This document shows, piece by piece, positions 18,929 to 39,782 of a stretch of DNA of 64,000 nucleotides. The stretch is from Escherichia phage JH2. The notes below the pieces were generated by a model. It ran no database searches. It saw only the letters and a list, made by a program, of their open reading frames with translations, and had not been told where the DNA came from. The stretch lies in the sequence record KF055347; one strand, 5' to 3'. The translations under genes were made by a program, and so were the position numbers. How positions within the stretch are numbered: the first letter of the stretch is position 1; each line of letters opens with the position of its first letter.

Positions 18929-19495
18929 TTACATAAACTTATTTTTCTTACAATTGTCAAAATGGTAACGAGTCATGTTACCAGCACCACCAGTCATGCC
19001 ACAATGAGGGCAAGTTTTCTTTTCCTTTGGCTTTTTCCCAGCTTCTGACATCTTCTTCCTTGTTTCTATAGACCTTTTACATCCTTTTGATTTTGTATTA
19101 CCTATTTGGGCTTCTCCTAACCGTCTTCGATGTTCTTCAGTGAAAACCCTACCTTTATTCACAATAGATAAAGCTTTCGAGTTTAAAGCCCTTATCTTTT
19201 CATAGTCTCTGGATGATATTTTCCTGTCTAGTCCATCATGAGCTAACCTGTGCCATGCAAACCATAACTTATGGTTGTCTGGATACATCTTAACCAGCAA
19301 TTTATGAGCTATATAATGCTCTCTAGGTGTAAGTAAAGCAATATTGTCTCCACTAATTTTATCACCACCTAAGCATACTGGTATAATATGGTGTCTTTCA
19401 TAACCTTTGCCTTGACATTTGTAGTATGTGAGAGGCACACCCCTTTCAGAATGTGCCTTCTTAATAATTGCATTATAGATTAGTTCGTAATTCAT
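18929..19495 (-). CDS. free-standing HNH homing endonuclease-like protein
   Basis: 188 aa; ERHHIIPVCLGGDKISGDNIALLTPREHYIAH is an HNH motif; lies between nrdD exon 2 and nrdG. Confidence 0.65.
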   Translation of the reverse strand: MNYELIYNAIIKKAHSERGVPLTYYKCQGKGYERHHIIPVCLGGDKISGDNIALLTPREHYIAHKLLVKMYPDNHKLWFAWHRLAHDGLDRKISSRDYEKIRALNSKALSIVNKGRVFTEEHRRRLGEAQIGNTKSKGCKRSIETRKKMSEAGKKPKEKKTCPHCGMTGGAGNMTRYHFDNCKKNKFM

Positions 19496-19502
19496 TTAGA
19501 TG

Positions 19503-20450
19503 CTACATAGAAACCCTATCCTTAATTTCTGCCATCTTAGCGTCATTCATTCGAGACTGACCTTTAATTTTTGTGAATGACAAGTACCCGCACACCCTGT
19601 TAATCACAGAGATATCATGTGAATGGCAAACCTCACATTCTTCAACATCAGCCTTTGGTCTGTTACCGCAATGCTCACAGATTGCTAAGTCAAAGTTAAG
19701 TCCCTGATAAAAACCTTTCAACATCCCTCTTGTAATACAACTTTTAAGTGCTGGTAAGTTTTCTGGGTTAGCTACCCTCACATACTGGATTCTGCCACCT
19801 CTACAGATATGGAAGAATGGCTCTTCTAAGTCCTGCTTCTCAAATGGTGAGATGTTTGCTGCAACATTCATATGGAAACTGTTTGTAAAGTATTCCTTGT
19901 CAGAGACACCTTTAATAACGCCAAACATATCTCTGAACTGTTTTAACTGAGTTCCACAAAGTGATTCTGCTGGAGTGCCATATACCGCATACAAGAAGCC
20001 ATCTTCGTTCTTAAACTCTTCAGTTTTCATGTTAATGTATGCCAGAACATCGTATGCAAAACTATAGCTTCCAACTTCATGAAGTCGTTTACCTTCAGCA
20101 AGAACAGACAACTCATCAAGAGCAGTAACCCCAAAAGAGGCTGTGAAAGACTTCACAATATCCCAGCCAACCTTGTCAGTAGGTTTCTTAGTCCCTTTGT
20201 ACAGACCACCTTGTGTGAATGCAAGAGGGTTAGAACTTGCTGGCATATTAGCAATCATCTCGTAGCGTTTCTTGTGGAAGCTGCGAATCATCTCTAGGTA
20301 CTTATCAAGCTCCTTCCAGAAATCTAAACCATTCTCTTTAGAATATTGGTAAATCATTGGTAAGTTCAAAGATACAGCACCAATGTTAGCACGACCTACA
20401 TAAAACTCTTCACCATCTTCGTTATGATATGGTGATAAGAACGCTCTACA
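19503..20450 (-). CDS. nrdD: anaerobic ribonucleoside-triphosphate reductase NrdD, exon 2
   Basis: reading frame is open upstream of the annotated Met to CRAFLSP at 20450, continuing T4 NrdD ..PMG/CRSFLS; contains TNSFH and C-terminal Cys cluster. Confidence 0.75.
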   Translation of the reverse strand, partial: CRAFLSPYHNEDGEEFYVGRANIGAVSLNLPMIYQYSKENGLDFWKELDKYLEMIRSFHKKRYEMIANMPASSNPLAFTQGGLYKGTKKPTDKVGWDIVKSFTASFGVTALDELSVLAEGKRLHEVGSYSFAYDVLAYINMKTEEFKNEDGFLYAVYGTPAESLCGTQLKQFRDMFGVIKGVSDKEYFTNSFHMNVAANISPFEKQDLEEPFFHICRGGRIQYVRVANPENLPALKSCITRGMLKGFYQGLNFDLAICEHCGNRPKADVEECEVCHSHDISVINRVCGYLSFTKIKGQSRMNDAKMAEIKDRVSM

Positions 20451-21192
20451 CTTGTTGTTCAGGTAAGTTCGCTACGCTTACCCCGCTTTATTCAAGCTGC
20501 TTACTGTCACCAGTAAGTCCAGACTATATCTTCTACTTATTTCTAAGTAGCGTACCATTTCGAGTCGCTTGACCCTACACCGCTACATTCATCACGGTTA
20601 GTCGTTCGGCATTTAAATGTACTCAAAATCATGTTCAAAGTTATTATGCTCTTTTACACACTTCAATATTGAAGAGATAGTCTTGCGATTATACCCAAGT
20701 ACATTAGATAACTCTCGTATTGACTTAGCAACAATAACTTCTTTTGTCACTTTATGTGTAGCCTTCACAGCATATGAACGCTTACAAAACTTGTAGCAAC
20801 CATTCTCATAGCCTTCTTTAACATTCTCAGAATGAGTTCCCCATTCTAAGTTAGAAGCATGGTTGTTCAGTTTGTTATCATCTTTGTGTTTTACAATTGG
20901 AAGATTGTTAGGGTTAGGTACATACTTTTCAGCAACTAACCTATGGACATACATGTCACGATTCTTCCTTCCATAAAACCTTACTTTCATATAACCAGTG
21001 TTGGATTTCCACTGCGTAAGTTCTACACCATTTTTCCTAAAGACTCTTCCGTCCTCAGTAACATGATAATTTGGCATGTAATACTCCTATTTTATATAGT
21101 TTCTTACATCGTACATCATTTAGCACAGGATTGTCTACACCTGTAGAGTTTCCCTGTTTAGGCACGTTTTAGATGAGCTATAGAGCTTGTTA
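20451..21192 (-). mobile_element. group I intron in nrdD carrying an HNH homing endonuclease ORF
   Basis: exon 1 ends ..ISPMG with a U then an in-frame stop; conserved core element AAGATATAGTC on the minus strand (plus 20522-20530); intron ends in G before TGT. Confidence 0.7.
20613..21077 (-). CDS. intron-encoded HNH-family homing endonuclease
   Basis: 154 aa; HKDDNKLNNHASNLEWGTHSEN is an HNH_3-type motif; located inside the nrdD intron. Confidence 0.65.
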   Translation of the reverse strand: MPNYHVTEDGRVFRKNGVELTQWKSNTGYMKVRFYGRKNRDMYVHRLVAEKYVPNPNNLPIVKHKDDNKLNNHASNLEWGTHSENVKEGYENGCYKFCKRSYAVKATHKVTKEVIVAKSIRELSNVLGYNRKTISSILKCVKEHNNFEHDFEYI

Positions 21193-22389
21193 ACCCATCG
21201 GTGAAATAACCTTACCAGAACGCTCAAAAGCCTCTGCTACAGCACCGTGACCAGATACACTTAAGAAATCTGGATACATTGCTTTAGAGCAACACTCAAC
21301 GGCTTTACTGTACAGGTGTCCTTGACAGATATTCTCATTGTGTCTCTTCTGGTCATGAATATAAACCAGTTTAGGGAATACAACAGGCTTCTTACTCTTA
21401 CCTTGTCCATTCATGCGAACATCAAGAATGGTGTTTGCAATCATGTATTGCAGTCGGTTGTCTTCATTAGACATATCTGAGTCAAGTAAACCAAATGTTA
21501 AAGTTGTGAATGCAAAATCACCACGGCTACAAGGTACAGTATTTAGTTTCATTTCGAGTGACTGGAAGCCTTGAGTTAATTCAATCTGTAGCTGCTCCAT
21601 GACATAATTATGGTAATGTTCTTTAGGAATACCGTAAGATGCTGCTTTCTCAGCATGATAGCGTAGAGACTTCTTAGCATACGGTACAAGCACCTTATCA
21701 ATCTCTGCTAAAGTAAATCCACCAAATTGCTGTGCAGTTGCTGAAAGAACTACATCACCGATAACTTGTAAGGCTGACAGTACAGACTTCGGTTCACAGT
21801 ATTCGATGCCAGACATTTCAAAGCCGCCTTTCAGTACTTTACCAATGTCAAACAAGCAACAGTTAATACCGCCAAAAATCAGGTCTCTCAAATCGTGGAT
21901 ATAGATAAACCCTTTTTCAATGGATTCAAGTTCCTCTGGTGTTAAATGGTACTGTTTAAAGATTTCTTTAGTCAGATAACCACGAATAATTGAACCTTTT
22001 GTAGAAATTAAACTACTGTCAAAGTTAGCATTTTCACGGTCACCTAAGAAGAGTGTGTCTTTAGTCTTTTGGTAAAGCTCATCCCAATTTTGAGCAACCT
22101 CTTTACGATAATTTCTATATGTTGAGTAAGACTCATAAATCTCGTGATTTACTTCTGCCAAAGCACCCTCAACAATACTGTGAATATCGTTTACTGAGAT
22201 GAGCAAATTATTCTGCTTAGTGGACTTTACCAGAATCCTCATAAATGCTGACTCAAGAGCTTGAGTAACATCTGGTGGAAGTTCTTTATAACCAACCCTG
22301 TTAGCTGACTTTGTGACTGCTGCTAAAACTTTTTTGATATCAGGTTCTTCGAGTGAGCCATTCTTTTTAATAATCTGTACTTTGTTCAT
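21193..22389 (-). CDS. nrdD: anaerobic ribonucleoside-triphosphate reductase NrdD, exon 1
   Basis: N-terminal ATP-cone-like region; IYIHDLRDLIFGGINCCLFD aligns with T4 NrdD HVHDIDY..NCCLVD; ends ISPMG. Confidence 0.75.
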
Positions 22390-35585: not shown

Positions 35586-37728
35586 ATGGAAAACGTAGAT
35601 TTTAAAAACTTACATTTAGTTGGCGATACAGAAACTGATGGTTTACTCCTTGAGTTCACTAAAGTGCACGTAATGGCTTTCGCAGACTATAAATCTGACG
35701 ATGAAGAGCCACCTGTATGGGTCTTTACAGATGAGCCTATCCTCGGCCACAAGTATACCAAGTACATTAAAGGTGGTTTGCGTGAAGGTGTCGAGTTTGC
35801 GTTAAAGGCAAAACGGCTTTGCATCCATAATGGTCTGGGGTATGACTGGTGGGTTTTCAATCACATTGCACCTGATTTGTGGAACTTTGATAATCCAAAG
35901 TGTAAACCGTGGAGTAATTTCTTTCAGGATTCTCTTATCCAGTCTCGTGTTCAGTGGATGGATAGACCAACTCCAAAGGGTTATAAAGGTGCTCATGGTT
36001 TGGCTGCATGGGGTGCTCGTGTTGGTGTACGTAAACCAGAGATTGAACATTGGGGTGTGTGGAATGCAGAAATCTTCACTCGTGTTGTAGAAGATATCCG
36101 TATTAACGCCAAAACTAAACGTGCACTGGATAATGAATATCTCAAGCTGAAGAAGTGTGGCGTAGATACTTATGAAACCTACATGCGAGCTAAAGAAACA
36201 TCTTTCTGGATGAGTCAACAAGCTATCAATGGTTGGAAAGCTGATAAAGAACTTATGGAGTTCCATGTAAAGGAACTTGACAAGTTGACTAATGAGCTTG
36301 CTTCAGAAGTTGAACCACATCTTCCTCCAACTATTAAGACCAAAGGTAAAGTCACTGGAGAAGAGTTTGCAAAAGCTTGGAATGAGTATGTTGAAGCATT
36401 CGGTCATGCAGATGGACTGAAGAGAATTACCAAGTACCCTAAGACAAAGTATCGTCAGCAGGTACGTAACGGTGAGATGCAGACATATGAAATTAAGCCA
36501 TTTGGTAAGCCAACTACAAAGATTTTTAACATTGAAAAGCGGAATTGCTATACACCAACCAACTCTGTAACTGGTGAAGAGTACAAGGAAGGTTTTGTAG
36601 CAATGAAGGATGCTCGTGCAATTTGCAATGAGTTGAATGCAAAGATTGGTAAGAAATGCAAAGACTGGAAGCCAGTAAAAACAGTTAAAACTGTGAAGTA
36701 CTATAACAGTCATGTTGTGAACCACTTTGAGCTTGAGTCAAGTCGCTACACAGGTTTGATTGATGCACCATATACACCAATTGAGTTTGAAGTTTCTCGA
36801 ATGACTCAGGTGGCTGTTGTGAAGGACTACTTGAAATCAGTTGGTTGGATTCCTGATGACTGGAACTATAAGAAAGACTCTGATGGTCGTCCTGTTAAGG
36901 TTTGTCGTTTCAAAGACAACAAAAAGATGATTACCAAACATCCTAAATGGGATGAGATGGTTGAACGGTGCGGTTTGAGTTATGTTGAACATGAAGGTGT
37001 ACAGTACATTGAGCATAACTGGTCTGTTAAGAAGTACACAGATTTGCTTGAACCTTGCTTAATCCGTACTTCACCAAAACTTACTGAATCATCTTATGAT
37101 ACGATTGAAGGTGAGCTTGGGCAGAAGATTGCAAAATACTATACCTTGATGCACAGACGCAGAACTATTGAGAACTCAAAGGATGATGAAAAAGGTTGGT
37201 TAAACCAGATTCGTCCTGATGGTCGCCTTAGTGCTGGTGCAATGGTGTTTGGTACTTCAACTGGACGTATGACACAATATGGTATTGTAAACGTACCGTC
37301 TGGCGCTGCTGTCTATGGAGCACCCATGAGGGAAGTTTGGACTTGTGAAGAGGGTACTAATATTGTTTCAGCCGACATGAATAGCGCCCAACTTGTGCTG
37401 CTGTGTAACTTTATGGGTGATAAAGATTTCACTAAAGCGGTGACAGAGGGTAAAGAAGAGGTTGAGTTTGTCAAACAAGAGGATGGTAGATACTATTGCA
37501 AACATTTTAACCAGTATCTAAACCCAGCTATTGACAAGTATTTACATTATGATTCTGAAAATGACTTATACGTGGTGTACTCAGGGACTGATGCACATAC
37601 TTTAAACAGTATCTACTTCAGCCTTAATAAAGAGGAAGACATCTTGACATGTCGAGCTACTCAGGATGCAAATCTTCTTCAAGAAATTAGTAAAGGCCGT
37701 AAGAAAGCCAAAAATGGCATTTATGCGT
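35586..37728 (+). CDS. DNA polymerase family A, exon 1 (3-prime-5-prime exonuclease plus polymerase through first half of motif B)
   Basis: Exo I motif LVGDTETDGL; ends ..RKKAKNGIY inside motif B; start moved to ATG 35586 with RBS. Confidence 0.75.
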
Positions 37729-38530
37729 CAGTGGCGCATGTAAAACGTTGTGAATTGCTGGAAGCCTAAGTCTGTAAAGATATGGTAATCAGCAGCGAAG
37801 TCTCTGTTAGGACTCCTAAAACAAAGGAGAGAGACAATGGCAGGTTACGAAGAGAGATTATGCACTGAGTGTGGTACGGAGTTTAAACCATATCAATACA
37901 ATCAGAAACGGTGCAGAAGTTGTGTATTAAAGTTTGACAGAAGGGCAGAACACAGGGTTCTTACTAAGAAATGCCCTAGTTGTGAGAAGGTGTTCATGCC
38001 GAGAACAGCAAGGCAAGTTTATTGTTCGTCACATTGCGGTGAGAAAGGTAGAGTTAAGAATTACTACCTAAGAACATATGGATTGGAAAGAGAAGAGGTT
38101 GAGTCTCTACTCCGTGACTGTGATTACAAATGTCAAATTTGTGGCGGCGAAGGTTTTATCATGAATGGTTCACGACACAAGGCTAAACTTGTTGTTGACC
38201 ATGACCATAAAACCGGAAAGGTAAGAGGTATGTTATGCCACAATTGCAACAGAGCTTTGGGGTTGCTTGCAGATAGTGTTGATAACATGCAAAGAGCGAT
38301 TGACTATCTAAGCAAATGATATAACTATAGAGATTCCTAACAGAGAAACGTTCAGAGACTATCGAAAAGCATACTTAACGTATGAACTGAGTAGAGTAGG
38401 GTGGTAAGCTAATGACCATCCCCAAGTGCAACGGTAGCATCACTGCTACGTGATATAGTCCGACACTCCGTAGAAATGCGGAGAAGTTCATAAGAGAACT
38501 GGTACACCTTGCGAGTGTATTGACCAGATG
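37729..38530 (+). mobile_element. group I intron in the DNA polymerase gene carrying an EndoVII-type HNH ORF
   Basis: polymerase motif B split (..KNGIY / ..LFGAGDEKFAK); exon 1 ends in U at 37728; intron ends in G at 38530; conserved GATATAGTCC at 38452-38461; boundaries inferred. Confidence 0.65.
37837..38319 (+). CDS. intron-encoded HNH endonuclease, endonuclease VII-like
   Basis: 160 aa; VVDHDHKTGKVRGMLCHNCNRALG typical of EndoVII-type HNH; several CxxC pairs; good RBS. Confidence 0.65.
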   Translation: MAGYEERLCTECGTEFKPYQYNQKRCRSCVLKFDRRAEHRVLTKKCPSCEKVFMPRTARQVYCSSHCGEKGRVKNYYLRTYGLEREEVESLLRDCDYKCQICGGEGFIMNGSRHKAKLVVDHDHKTGKVRGMLCHNCNRALGLLADSVDNMQRAIDYLSK

Positions 38531-39087
38531 TATTGTTCGGGGCTGGCGATGAGAAATTTGCTAAGACGATTAAAGCATCTACAACTGAGGAAGGTGCTTT
38601 AACTAAGCAAACATACTTTGTACGTCTCCCTAAAATTAAGAAGTTGATAGATAATTTAGAAGCAGACTTCAAAGCCACTAAGAAGGCTCTTGAAGAGGTA
38701 TTTGGTAAGACTGCCGCAATCTCTAAAGGGGGGTTTGTAAAGGTTGCTGGAGCTTGGTTGTGGTGTAAATCTCCACATAAGTTATTGAATTATTTGCTTA
38801 TGGGTTCGGAAAGTCAGGTTCAGAATGAAGCCATCAACCTCGCTTGTAGAAGAACTTGTGAAGAGGGTCTTACAAAGTTGAATGGTCGAAAACCAGCTAT
38901 TGGCGCTAGATTGCTTTTAGCATATCACGATGAGAATAGTTGGGAGTGTCCAGAAGACATGACGCAGGATGTTAAAGCAGTAATTGACTGGATGTATGGT
39001 CAAGCATCAAGAAATTTAGGGCTTAAGGAGGAAACTCTCGTAACTGGCACTGGTAAAGTTGGTAAAAATTGGCTTGAGGTACACTGA
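38531..39087 (+). CDS. DNA polymerase family A, exon 2 (second half of motif B through C-terminus)
   Basis: begins LFGAGDEKFAK aligning with T7 gp5 ..YGAGDEKIG; no ATG start, consistent with an exon. Confidence 0.7.
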
Positions 39088-39148: not shown

Positions 39149-39367
39149 ATGACGCTTTCAGAGATTGAAGTTCAGTTGCAATGTGCAGGTTATTCTCAAA
39201 AAGAGATTGAAGGGATGTTTATTGTTCTTTGCAGTAGCTGTAGGAATTTGAAGGTAAAACCTGAAGTTCTACGTAGAGTCGATATCTTTATTGCTGGAGG
39301 CAAAATCGCAAAAGATAAGACGGGTTACTTAAAAGGTGAGCGTGTAAACATTGAGACTTTACTATGA
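39149..39367 (+). CDS. hypothetical small protein, paralog A
   Basis: 72 aa; AGGAGG RBS; C-terminus IAGGKIAKDKTGYLKGERVNIETLL similar to ORF 39570..39782. Confidence 0.5.
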   Translation: MTLSEIEVQLQCAGYSQKEIEGMFIVLCSSCRNLKVKPEVLRRVDIFIAGGKIAKDKTGYLKGERVNIETLL

Positions 39368-39573
39368 GCCACCGTGGAAGAACCCATGCAGCAATGATGA
39401 AAGGTGCTTCAAAGGAAACTATCAAGAATCGTAAACAGAAGTTGTTTGAGAGGATGAACAGGTTAATTGACAATTCATCTCTTTCAGGTTCTGAGAAGGT
39501 TTTCTTGAAAGGTAATCTGAAAAGCATTGCACAAGAACTTATTGACATTGAGTATTGGAGACACCAAAAATGA
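39364..39573 (+). CDS. hypothetical basic protein
   Basis: 69-aa ORF, ATGA coupling at both ends. Confidence 0.4.
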   Translation: MSHRGRTHAAMMKGASKETIKNRKQKLFERMNRLIDNSSLSGSEKVFLKGNLKSIAQELIDIEYWRHQK

Positions 39574-39782
39574 CACTTGCAGACGTTATTCAGCAACTTC
39601 ACAACAACTGCTACACTCCAGAGTTGATTCAGGAGATGCTCATTGTAGTAATACCTAGTAAGTTCGTAAAAGGTTTTAATCGTGACTCCTTAATGTCTGC
39701 ACATATCATTATTGTTGACGGTAAGATTGCAAGAGACCGTACAGGAGTCCTTAAGGGTGAACGTATTAGCATTGACATCTGA
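39570..39782 (+). CDS. hypothetical small protein, paralog B
   Basis: 70 aa from ATG 39570; IVDGKIARDRTGVLKGERISIDI parallels paralog A; upstream DNA motif repeated at 39774-39803. Confidence 0.5.
   Translation: MTLADVIQQLHNNCYTPELIQEMLIVVIPSKFVKGFNRDSLMSAHIIIVDGKIARDRTGVLKGERISIDI

What the first reader, a model, noticed from the sequence alone, without database searches (positions are those of the whole stretch)
37729..38530. Family A DNA polymerase is interrupted inside motif B by a group I intron encoding an EndoVII-type HNH nuclease
Exon 1 ends ..RKKAKNGIY and exon 2 begins ..LFGAGDEKFAK; together they restore the motif B arrangement R..AK..(I/F)Y....(Y/F)GAGDEK seen in T7 gp5. The ~800-nt insert contains a 160-aa ORF with the DHDHKTGKVRGMLCHNCN motif and the GATATAGTCC core element. 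I placed the splice sites at 37728/38531 because that satisfies the U and terminal-G rules and preserves motif spacing. Two essential genes in one window are intron-split with different endonuclease families.
Basis: partly seen in the sequence, partly recalled or inferred. Interest (0 to 1): 0.65.

Follow-up and report, generated by a model that had tools for sequence, protein, structure and literature searches.

The report
Known self-splicing intron in phage polymerase

Summary
The observation and the interpretation both hold. The window is a Felixounavirus genome. Its family A DNA polymerase gene is split at 37728/38531 by an 802-nt insert.

- **Junction.** Joining the exons gives ...RKKAKNGIYALLFGAGDEKFAK..., the same residues as intron-less relatives such as wV8 and FO1a. 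No other junction restores this. The joined protein passes Pfam DNA_pol_A; neither exon does alone.
- **Position.** The break lies in motif B (the O-helix), between the equivalents of T7 gp5 Y526 and Y530.
- **Ribozyme.** The insert is a subgroup IA2 group I intron with P1, P3-P9.2, P7.1/P7.2 and P10, and no P2. There is a U•G pair at the 5' splice site and a terminal G.
- **Rfam.** The window copy scores below threshold only because a 483-nt ORF sits in the P6a loop. ORF-less copies at the same site in EC106 and tootiki score 62.9 and 61.3 bits (threshold 50).
- **Nuclease.** The ORF is an intact Endonuclease VII ("DHHRN") type nuclease, 51% identical to the one in the Pseudomonas phage LUZ24 polymerase intron, which is known to splice.
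- **Mobility.** The ribozyme core is 96-100% identical between phages whose flanking exons are only 73-79% identical.

Fang et al. 2018 listed these Felix-like nucleases as intron-encoded. The Meda record annotates its (ORF-less) intron as a joined CDS. Verdict: real, correct and ordinary.

The parts
35586..37728 (+). DNA polymerase (family A) exon 1. The mechanical ORF starts at ATG 35556, but ATG 35586 follows a GAGGGAG Shine-Dalgarno and is the likelier start. It ends after the first base (T) of codon Leu725 (909-aa numbering).
   Evidence: T7 gp5 alignment; relatives annotate the corresponding start
37729..38530 (+). Group I intron, subgroup IA2, 802 nt, no P2, ending in the terminal G at 38530.
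   Evidence: ORF-less copies at the same site score 62.9/61.3 bits on RF00028, threshold 50; window partial hits of 24.6 and 14.9 bits; alignment; structure
37723..37739 (+). P1: exon AUGCGU (37723-37728) pairs with the internal guide GCGCAU (37734-37739), with U37728•G37734 at the 5' splice site. The loop CAGUG (37729-37733) can pair with the first five exon 2 bases UAUUG (38531-38535) as P10.
37746..37797 (+). 5' core: P3 5' strand CGUUG (37746-37750), P4 (37756-37761 / 37789-37794), P5-P5a with a GUAA loop (37765-37785), P6 5' strand GCG (37795-37797).
   Evidence: P3 covariation
37801..37812 (+). P6a 5' strand UCUCUGUUAGGA. It pairs perfectly (12 bp) with 38335-38346. The nuclease ORF lies in the loop of this helix.
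37813..37829 (+). Small hairpin CUCCU/AGGAG that occludes the ORF's Shine-Dalgarno AAGGAG (37824-37829). It is kept with a change in the EC6-type intron. A role in limiting nuclease translation is inferred only.
   Evidence: z-scores only -1.4 to -1.5
37837..38319 (+). Homing endonuclease ORF, 160 aa. It has two N-terminal zinc ribbons (C9/C12/C26/C29 and C46/C49/C63/C67) and a C-terminal Endo VII catalytic domain (C99xxC102, D121 H122 D123 H124, R130, C134xxC137, N138).
   Evidence: Pfam PF02945 70.5 bits; alignment to T4 Endo VII and Hpy99I; 51% identity to LUZ24 gp35
38335..38351 (+). P6a 3' strand UCCUAACAGAGA (38335-38346) and P6 3' strand CGU (38349-38351).
38357..38460 (+). Catalytic core, 3' part: P7 5' strand GACUA (38357-38361), P7.1 (38370-38384), GUAGAGUAG linker, P7.2 (38399-38421), P3 3' strand CAACG (38429-38433), P8 (38434-38449), J8/7 GUGAUA, P7 3' strand UAGUC (38456-38460).
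38466..38530 (+). P9 with a GAAA loop (38466-38483), P9.1 (38486-38499), P9.2 (38500-38526), terminal G at 38530.
38531..39087 (+). DNA polymerase exon 2 (rest of motif B, motif C, C-terminus; stop TGA 39085-39087). The 'TTG start' at 38533 used in many database records has no ribosome-binding site and is an annotation artefact.

Best explanation
The insert 37729-38530 is a mobile, self-splicing group I intron of subgroup IA2 inside the codons for motif B (the O-helix) of the phage's family A DNA polymerase.

The gene is transcribed as one pre-mRNA. The ribozyme folds into P1, P3-P9.2 and P7.1/P7.2. An external guanosine attacks after U37728, and the freed exon 1 then attacks after G38530. This ligates GCG-U to UA-UUG and yields one polymerase of about 900 aa with an intact motif B.

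The 160-aa protein encoded in the P6a loop is an Endo VII ('DHHRN') type homing endonuclease. In mixed infections it would cut intron-less polymerase alleles near the insertion site. Repair from the intron-bearing genome would then copy the intron across.

Shown here: the anatomy, the junction, membership of the ribozyme and nuclease families, and the population signature of mobility. Inferred: the splicing and the cleavage themselves.
For: **Junction**
- Joined exons equal the intron-less alleles residue for residue.
- The joined protein passes Pfam DNA_pol_A (57.9 vs 34.3) with one alignment stretch spanning the junction. The separate halves fail.
- T7 gp5 aligns across the junction.

**Ribozyme**
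- ORF-less copies (268 and 311 nt) at the identical site in tootiki, Meda and EC106 have a core 96-100% identical to the window's.
- Tootiki and EC106 were scored and pass the Rfam RF00028 threshold (61.3 and 62.9 bits vs 50).
- U•G at the 5' splice site, a terminal G, P1 and P10 are all present.
- Unconstrained folding recovers P1, P3, P4, P5, P7.1, P7.2, P8, P9 and P9.1.
- Compensatory changes occur in P6a and P8 among Felix-type copies.
- In 16 of 17 related cores from viral metagenomes, P3 pairs perfectly at the homologous place, with 14 different strand sequences. The cross-matched control gives 22%.

**Nuclease**
- Pfam Endonuclease_7, E 1e-19. All catalytic and zinc residues of T4 Endo VII are present.

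**Precedent**
- The nuclease is 51% identical to LUZ24 gp35, encoded in a polymerase motif B intron that is spliced in vivo (PMC10914365). The same rules reproduce that published junction.

**Mobility**
- Three allelic states coexist in Felixounavirus: no intron, ORF-less intron and ORF-containing intron.
- DE7 shares a 96.9% identical ORF and a 97-100% identical core with the window, but its exons are only 77-78% identical.

**Against a split gene**
- There is no promoter-like or terminator-like site in the insert and no ribosome-binding site for exon 2.
Against: - There are no RNA data for this phage, and I found no splicing experiment for any Felix O1-like phage.
- The window's own sequence does not reach the Rfam threshold (24.6 and 14.9 bits). 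The cause is evident: a 483-nt ORF in P6a.
- Fold z-scores are modest (-1.6).
- Within Felixounavirus the core is almost invariant, so most covariation support comes from more distant relatives.
- Nuclease activity and target are untested. Decayed copies exist (the 22-nt deletion in VpaE1 and the ORF-less forms), so the nuclease is dispensable for the phage.
Confidence: 0.93

Rival explanations
1. Split gene without splicing. The polymerase is made as two polypeptides (exon 1 product ending at the TAA at 37767-37769, exon 2 product starting at TTG 38533) that assemble. The nuclease gene is then just a free-standing insertion.
For: Many database records annotate it this way ('DNA polymerase (x2)' plus 'endonuclease VII'). 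An in-frame TTG exists at 38533. Split genes caused by free-standing nuclease genes are known in other phages (general knowledge).
Against: - The insert carries a complete, conserved group I ribozyme, which would have no reason to stay 96-100% identical while the exons drift to 73-79%.
- ORF-less inserts of 268 nt at the same site cannot be explained as nuclease gene insertions.
- There is no Shine-Dalgarno before TTG 38533 and no promoter-like site in the insert.
- The break falls in the middle of the O-helix.
- The related LUZ24 intron is spliced in vivo (PMC10914365).
Confidence: 0.03
2. The ribozyme splices, but the nuclease is no longer an active homing enzyme. It is decaying or serves another role, so the intron is now inherited only vertically.
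For: ORF-less derivatives are at least as common as ORF-containing ones. EC106 lost the ORF by deletion between short GACTNCCTAA repeats, and VpaE1 has a 22-nt frameshifting deletion. This fits the usual gain-decay-loss cycle of homing nuclease genes.
Against: - The window's ORF is full length with every catalytic and zinc-binding residue intact.
- A near-identical ORF (96.9%) sits in DE7, whose polymerase exons are only 77-78% identical. This argues for recent horizontal transfer.
- A Shine-Dalgarno with good spacing precedes the ATG.
Confidence: 0.12
3. The splice junction lies elsewhere, shifted by a few bases or using a cryptic site.
For: No RNA evidence is available. Group I 3' splice sites are sometimes ambiguous when bases repeat at both boundaries.
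Against: - The boundary bases do not repeat (exon GCGT|CAGT......GATG|TATT). Only 37728/38531 restores Ala-Leu-Leu and the reading frame.
- The junction has U•G in P1, a terminal G and a P10 helix.
- All nine Felix-type copies share identical boundary sequences.
Confidence: 0.02

Closest known systems
Group I intron with Endo VII-type ORF in the polymerase gene of other Felixounavirus phages (EC6, JH2, FSL SP-010, 2 JES-2013, HK3, pEP20, BPS15Q2...); ORF-less form in Meda
   Same: The same element at the same site. HK3 is 99.6% identical over the whole intron and EC6 81%. Fang et al. 2018 (PMC6083498) list the EC6, JH2 and FSL SP-010 nucleases as intron-encoded. The Meda announcement (PMC6486253) mentions a polymerase intron, and its record joins the CDS.
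   Different: Nothing of substance. The window carries the intact ORF-containing variant of the HK3/pEP20 type.
Pseudomonas phage LUZ24 DNA polymerase intron with gp35 endonuclease VII (Ceyssens et al. 2008; Putzeys et al. 2024, PMC10914365)
   Same: A group I intron in motif B of a family A polymerase. It has a nuclease ORF of the same family (51% identity over 116 aa), U•G and terminal-G boundaries, and no P2-like extension. Splicing is shown in vivo.
   Different: It is inserted 6 nt upstream, after the first base of the Tyr526-equivalent codon. It is 669 nt against 802 nt. The LUZ24 nuclease lacks the extra N-terminal zinc ribbon. The host phage is a podovirus of Pseudomonas.
Polymerase introns of T7-like phages PhiI and W31 (Bonocora and Shub 2004) and cyanophage Pf-WMP3 (PMC3428280)
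   Same: Subgroup IA2, no P2, P7.1/P7.2 joined by a GUA-containing linker, nuclease ORF in P6a, and a host gene that is a family A polymerase (as described in PMC3428280).
   Different: The insertion sites differ: E. coli Pol I numbering 881 and 674, against about 763/764 here. The nucleases there are classical HNH enzymes (I-TslI, I-PfoP3I), not the Endo VII type.
F-CphI / 'DHHRN' homing endonuclease family (Fang et al. 2018) and T4 endonuclease VII
   Same: The catalytic motif CxxC...DHDH...R...CxxCN is at the C-terminus, as in the 'endonuclease clade'.
   Different: F-CphI is free-standing next to an intron-containing psbA gene. [quoted passage not shown]

Membership tests
Group I intron (Rfam RF00028), subgroup IA2 | Covariance-model score at or above the curated threshold (50 bits) | tested here: met
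   Met by the ORF-less copies at the same site: EC106 62.9 bits and tootiki 61.3 bits. Their core is 96-100% identical to the window's.
Group I intron (Rfam RF00028), subgroup IA2 | The window sequence itself reaches the threshold | tested here: inconclusive
   There are only two partial hits, 24.6 bits (P4-P6) and 14.9 bits. The 483-nt ORF plus flanks in the P6a loop breaks the model alignment. This is a limit of the scan, not a missing feature.
Group I intron (Rfam RF00028), subgroup IA2 | P1 with a U•G pair at the 5' splice site, a terminal G at the 3' end, and P10 with the 3' exon | tested here: met
   P1 is AUGCGU/GCGCAU with U37728•G37734. The terminal G is G38530. P10 is CAGUG/UAUUG.
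Group I intron (Rfam RF00028), subgroup IA2 | Conserved core helices P3-P8, including the P3/P7 pseudoknot and the J8/7-P7 consensus GAUAUAGUC | tested here: met
   Helices were located by hand and mostly recovered by free folding. P3 covaries in 16 of 17 related cores. There are compensatory changes in P6a and P8. P7 is invariant, so it is neither supported nor contradicted by covariation.
Group I intron (Rfam RF00028), subgroup IA2 | P7.1 and P7.2 between P7 and P3' joined by a GUA-containing linker (subgroup IA2, as described in PMC3428280) | tested here: met
   P7.1 is at 38370-38384, the linker ...GUAGAGUAG follows, and P7.2 is at 38399-38421.
Group I intron (Rfam RF00028), subgroup IA2 | Guanosine-dependent self-splicing | not testable with these tools
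   This needs in vitro transcription with GTP, or RT-PCR from infected cells. It has been shown only for the related LUZ24 intron (PMC10914365).
Endonuclease VII / 'DHHRN' homing endonucleases | Endo VII catalytic domain with zinc-binding CxxC pairs and D, H, H, R, N | tested here: met
   Pfam PF02945 70.5 bits against 23.6. C99/C102, D121, H122, H124, R130, C134/C137 and N138 align with T4 Endo VII C23/C26, D40, H41, H43, R54, C58/C61 and N62 (residue roles from PMC6083498).
Endonuclease VII / 'DHHRN' homing endonucleases | Encoded in a peripheral loop of a mobile intron, with patchy presence among close relatives | tested here: met
   The ORF is in the P6a loop. All three allelic states occur in Felixounavirus. 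The DE7 comparison indicates transfer.
Endonuclease VII / 'DHHRN' homing endonucleases | Site-specific cleavage of the intron-less allele | not testable with these tools
   This needs purified protein and an intron-less target.
Family A DNA polymerase (host gene) | Pfam DNA_pol_A above threshold and motif B R-x3-K-x3-(Y/F)-x3-(Y/F)-G | tested here: met
   The joined protein scores 57.9 bits against 34.3. R715, K719, Y723 and F727 align with T7 gp5 R518, K522, Y526 and Y530.

The most novel reading that the evidence does not exclude
Motif B of phage family A polymerases may be an 11-nt hot spot colonised repeatedly by one related lineage of IA2 introns carrying Endo VII-type nucleases.

I found three insertion points across unrelated phage groups:
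- a T7-like Yersinia phage, at TT|T of the Phe524-equivalent codon;
- LUZ24 and coliphage Bas93, 5 nt further on;
- Felixounavirus and Pseudomonas phage JHP, 6 nt further again.

If the nucleases all recognise the same conserved DNA, this would be a natural series showing nuclease genes and ribozymes re-pairing, or introns shifting position around a fixed target. I did not find this pattern described, but I did not search for it exhaustively.
Probability: 0.3. Interest if true: 0.4.

Novelty: already known. Interest (0 to 1): 0.15.

Why it matters
- **Annotation.** Most Felixounavirus records list two 'DNA polymerase' genes plus an 'endonuclease VII', and some list 'hypothetical proteins'. The correct annotation is one joined polymerase CDS, an intron feature and a homing endonuclease.
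- **Comparative genomics.** For phage-therapy and biocontrol genomics, the intron explains a common presence/absence difference between otherwise close phages.
- **Biology.** It is one more example of mobile introns targeting the most conserved codons of essential replication genes, and it adds no new principle.

Tried and rejected
- **Rfam on the window.** Scanning the whole window at gathering thresholds found nothing. Permissive scans gave only partial hits. I therefore used ORF-less alleles of the same intron.
- **MAFFT alignment A1.** I aligned 14 related cores, intending to use the count of structure pairs. MAFFT misplaced the Felix P3 3' strand, so I did not use that alignment. I counted P3 pairing by anchored extraction with a cross-matched control instead. 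The P4/P6 part of that script stopped on an atypical sequence; the six sequences printed all paired fully in P6 and five of six in P4.
- **Own covariance model.** Not attempted. The core exceeds 200 positions, which is beyond the tool's calibration limit.
- **First hand-drawn structure.** It was wrong in two respects (a 2-nt P6a loop, and P7 drawn as nested although it forms a pseudoknot with P3). This was corrected.
- **LUZ24 site.** I first took Pseudomonas phage JHP to be LUZ24-like and so placed the LUZ24 intron at the Felix site. Fetching LUZ24 itself showed its site is 6 nt upstream.
- **Intein reading.** Rejected: the insert has stop codons in the polymerase frame and its ORF is in another frame.
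- **Literature.** Searches for a splicing experiment in Felix O1-like phages found none.
- **Large searches.** The big protein and structure searches were not used because they could not change the verdict.

Full report
**What the window is.** The region 35500-39200 matches 260 phage records, nearly all Felix O1-like myoviruses (Felixounavirus) of Escherichia, Salmonella, Shigella and Citrobacter. The best matches are OPT-SAL01, pEP20 and HK3 at about 97% identity. In these records the region is annotated as 'DNA polymerase (x2)' plus 'endonuclease VII', or as hypothetical proteins.

**The observation.**
- An ORF from 35556 (the likelier start is ATG 35586, behind a GAGGGAG ribosome-binding site) reads ...GRKKAKNGIYA. 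If unspliced it runs into the insert and stops at TAA 37767-37769.
- A 160-aa ORF at 37837-38319 contains DHDHKTGKVRGMLCHNCN and matches Pfam Endonuclease_7 at 70.5 bits (cut-off 23.6).
- From 38531 the polymerase frame resumes with (L)LFGAGDEKFAK and runs to 39087.
- GATATAGTCC is at 38452-38461.
- So the description is accurate.

**The junction.**
- Joining 37728 to 38531 is in frame and gives ...RKKAKNGIYALLFGAGDEKFAK....
- A search with the joined 800 nt found many Felix-type genomes in which this stretch is uninterrupted, for example wV8 and UAB_Phi87.
- Six intron-less alleles from four genera of Ounavirinae encode RKKAKNGIY(A/C)LLFG(A/G)GDEKFAK. Four are identical to the joined window protein.
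- The bases at the two boundaries do not repeat, so only this junction restores Ala-Leu-Leu.
- The joined protein aligns with T7 gp5 across the junction: window R715, K719, Y723 and F727 correspond to T7 R518, K522, Y526 and Y530.
- The break is therefore inside the O-helix of motif B, after the first base of the codon equivalent to T7 Phe528.
- The joined protein passes Pfam DNA_pol_A (57.9 bits, cut-off 34.3) with one stretch crossing the junction. The two halves alone score 17.9 and 27.1.

**Is the insert a group I intron?**
- Rfam at curated thresholds finds nothing in the window. Permissive scans give two partial hits: 24.6 bits for P4-P6 at 37756-37846, and 14.9 bits for the 3' core.
- The reason is the 483-nt ORF inside the P6a loop.
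- Nature has done the control. The intron query matched about 98 Felix-type records. Of these, 39 hold the full ORF-containing form, and the rest hold ORF-less forms of 268 nt (tootiki, Meda) or 311 nt (EC106) at exactly the same site.
- Tootiki and EC106 score 61.3 and 62.9 bits, above the threshold of 50.
- Their ribozyme sequence is 96-100% identical to the window's.

**Structure.** I drew the structure on the 268-nt form and transferred it to window coordinates.
- P1 is AUGCGU/GCGCAU with a U•G pair at the splice site.
- There is no P2.
- P3 is CGUUG/CAACG. P4, P5-P5a (GUAA loop), P6 and P6a follow.
- P7 is GACUA/UAGUC, preceded by J8/7 GUGAUA.
- P7.1 and P7.2 are joined by ...GUAGAGUAG.
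- P8, P9 (GAAA loop), P9.1 and P9.2 follow, then a terminal G.
- A 5-bp P10 forms between the P1 loop and the first bases of exon 2.
- This is the subgroup IA2 architecture described for the PhiI/W31 and Pf-WMP3 polymerase introns (PMC3428280).
- Free-energy folding alone recovers P1, P3, P4, P5, P7.1, P7.2, P8, P9 and P9.1, although the z-score is only -1.6.

**Covariation.**
- Within Felix-type copies the core barely varies. Even so, P8 (GUAGC/GCUAC versus GUAGU/ACUAC) and P6a (U-A versus C-G) show compensatory changes.
- For a wider test I fetched viral metagenome contigs sharing the 17-nt J6/7-P7 motif and extracted 17 compact cores.
- In 16 of them the 5-nt P3 strands pair perfectly at the homologous position, with 14 different strand sequences. 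Mismatched sequence pairs pair perfectly in 22% of cases.
- The Felix P3 sits at that same position.

**The nuclease.**
- The C-terminal half aligns with T4 endonuclease VII and with Hpy99I.
- It keeps the zinc ligands (C99/C102, C134/C137) and D121, H122, H124, R130 and N138. Fang et al. 2018 showed these residues to be essential in the related enzyme F-CphI (PMC6083498).
- The N-terminal half has two CxxC...CxxC zinc ribbons, presumably for DNA binding (inference).
- An AAGGAG ribosome-binding site lies 7 nt before the ATG. It can be occluded by a small hairpin that is retained in the divergent EC6-type intron. A regulatory role is only an inference.

**Relatives outside Felixounavirus.**
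- The nuclease is about 51% identical to the intron-encoded Endo VII proteins of LUZ24 (gp35) and a T7-like Yersinia phage, 48% to that of coliphage Bas93, and 40% to that of Pseudomonas phage JHP.
- All four sit in group I introns in motif B of the polymerase.
- The LUZ24 intron (669 nt) is spliced in vivo (PMC10914365, citing Ceyssens et al. 2008). Its published coordinates obey the same U(-1), terminal-G and P1 rules that I applied to the window.
- The insertion points are not identical. The Yersinia phage site is in the Phe524-equivalent codon. LUZ24 and Bas93 are 5 nt further on. Felix and JHP are 6 nt further again.
- The published polymerase intron sites (E. coli Pol I numbering 674, 676 and 881; PMC3428280) are elsewhere in the gene.

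**Evidence of mobility.**
- The Felix O1-type phage FO1a, wV8 and many others lack the intron. The Felix O1 genome paper reports none (PMC3185647).
- Between the window and phages such as EC6, Meda and DE7, the last 400 nt of exon 1 and the first 400 nt of exon 2 are only 73-79% identical, while the ribozyme core is 96-100% identical.
- DE7 also shares a 96.9% identical nuclease ORF with the window.
- All intron-bearing alleles use GCG U|UA UUG at the junction, which forms P1 and P10. The intron-less alleles use GCA/GCC CUG/UUG CUG/UUG/UUA for the same amino acids.
- Decay products are visible. EC106 lost the ORF by deletion between short GACTNCCTAA repeats, and VpaE1 carries a 22-nt frameshifting deletion.
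- This is the expected life cycle of a homing element.

**Rivals.**
- A non-spliced, two-polypeptide polymerase is very unlikely. The ribozyme is complete and conserved, and ORF-less inserts occupy the same site. Exon 2 has no ribosome-binding site, and there are no promoter-like or terminator-like sites in the insert. The break would also cut a helix in half.
- An intein is excluded by stop codons and frame.
- A shifted junction is excluded by the comparison with intron-less alleles.
- Whether this copy of the nuclease is still active cannot be decided here, but it is intact.

**Novelty.**
- Fang et al. 2018 already list the Endo VII motif proteins of the Felix-like phages JH2, EC6, FSL SP-010 and 2 JES-2013 as intron-encoded.
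- The Meda announcement notes a polymerase intron, and its record joins the CDS (PMC6486253).
- The SPJ41 paper reports two introns found by an RNA scan (PMC9951933).
- The window's intron is 99.6% identical to that of HK3.
- The finding is therefore correct but already known.
- What appears to be missing from the literature is an experimental demonstration of splicing and homing in this phage group, and a description of the three neighbouring insertion points in motif B.

**The second split gene.** On the minus strand nrdD is split into 22389-21190 and 20369-19503. Between them lie an HNH_3-type ORF (21077-20613) and a group I-like core (35.7 bits at 20785-20500). This is a known arrangement in this genus (PMC4837284).

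Noticed in passing
window 19503-22389 (minus strand): The anaerobic ribonucleotide reductase gene nrdD is split into 22389-21190 and 20369-19503. Between them lie a 154-aa HNH_3-type ORF (21077-20613) and a group I intron-like core (RF00028 35.7 bits at 20785-20500, below threshold). The same split is reported for UAB_Phi87 and other Felix-like phages (PMC4837284). Exact splice sites were not determined.
   Followed up: partly
window 18929-19495 (minus strand): A 188-aa ORF with a NUMOD3 DNA-binding motif lies directly downstream of nrdD exon 2. It looks like a free-standing homing endonuclease gene.
   Followed up: no
L007 2455-2702 (Erwinia phage MIF8, Schitoviridae, PP700702): An unannotated ORF-less group I intron (RF00028 94.4 bits) has a core closely related to the Felix intron. 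It lies between the 'RNAP2-like protein' CDS and the next 'hypothetical protein', so the RNAP2-like gene of this N4-like phage is probably intron-split.
   Followed up: partly
L008 2393-3172 ('Listeria phage LPML1', OK283618, classified in Ounavirinae): A group I intron (57 bits) with an Endo VII-type ORF placed in P8 rather than P6a interrupts two unannotated 'hypothetical' genes. A Listeria host for an Ounavirinae genome looks doubtful.
   Followed up: no
L005 1468-, L006 1407-, L009 1372-, L004 3887-4399 (EC106, tootiki, Meda, DE7): In several relatives a free-standing HNH endonuclease gene of about 170 aa abuts or overlaps the stop codon of polymerase exon 2. The window has no such gene after 39087.
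   Followed up: no
window 39149-39367 and 39555-39782 (plus strand): Two small ORFs just downstream of the polymerase (72 and 75 aa) are clearly paralogous: MTLSEIEVQLQCAGYSQKEIEGMF... / ...MTLADVIQQLHNNCYTPELIQEML..., both ending ...KGERVNIETLL / ...KGERISIDI. Function unknown.
   Followed up: no
L012, L013, L014, L140 (Bas93, Yersinia T7-like phage, Pseudomonas phage JHP, LUZ24): Related IA2 introns with Endo VII-type ORFs occupy three different positions within 11 nt of polymerase motif B in unrelated phage groups. The Yersinia and JHP records do not annotate the intron.
   Followed up: partly
L020-L139 (IMG/VR contigs): More than 120 viral metagenome contigs carry the exact 17-nt motif TTCAGAGACTATCGAAA of this intron subfamily, in many different host genes.
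   Followed up: partly
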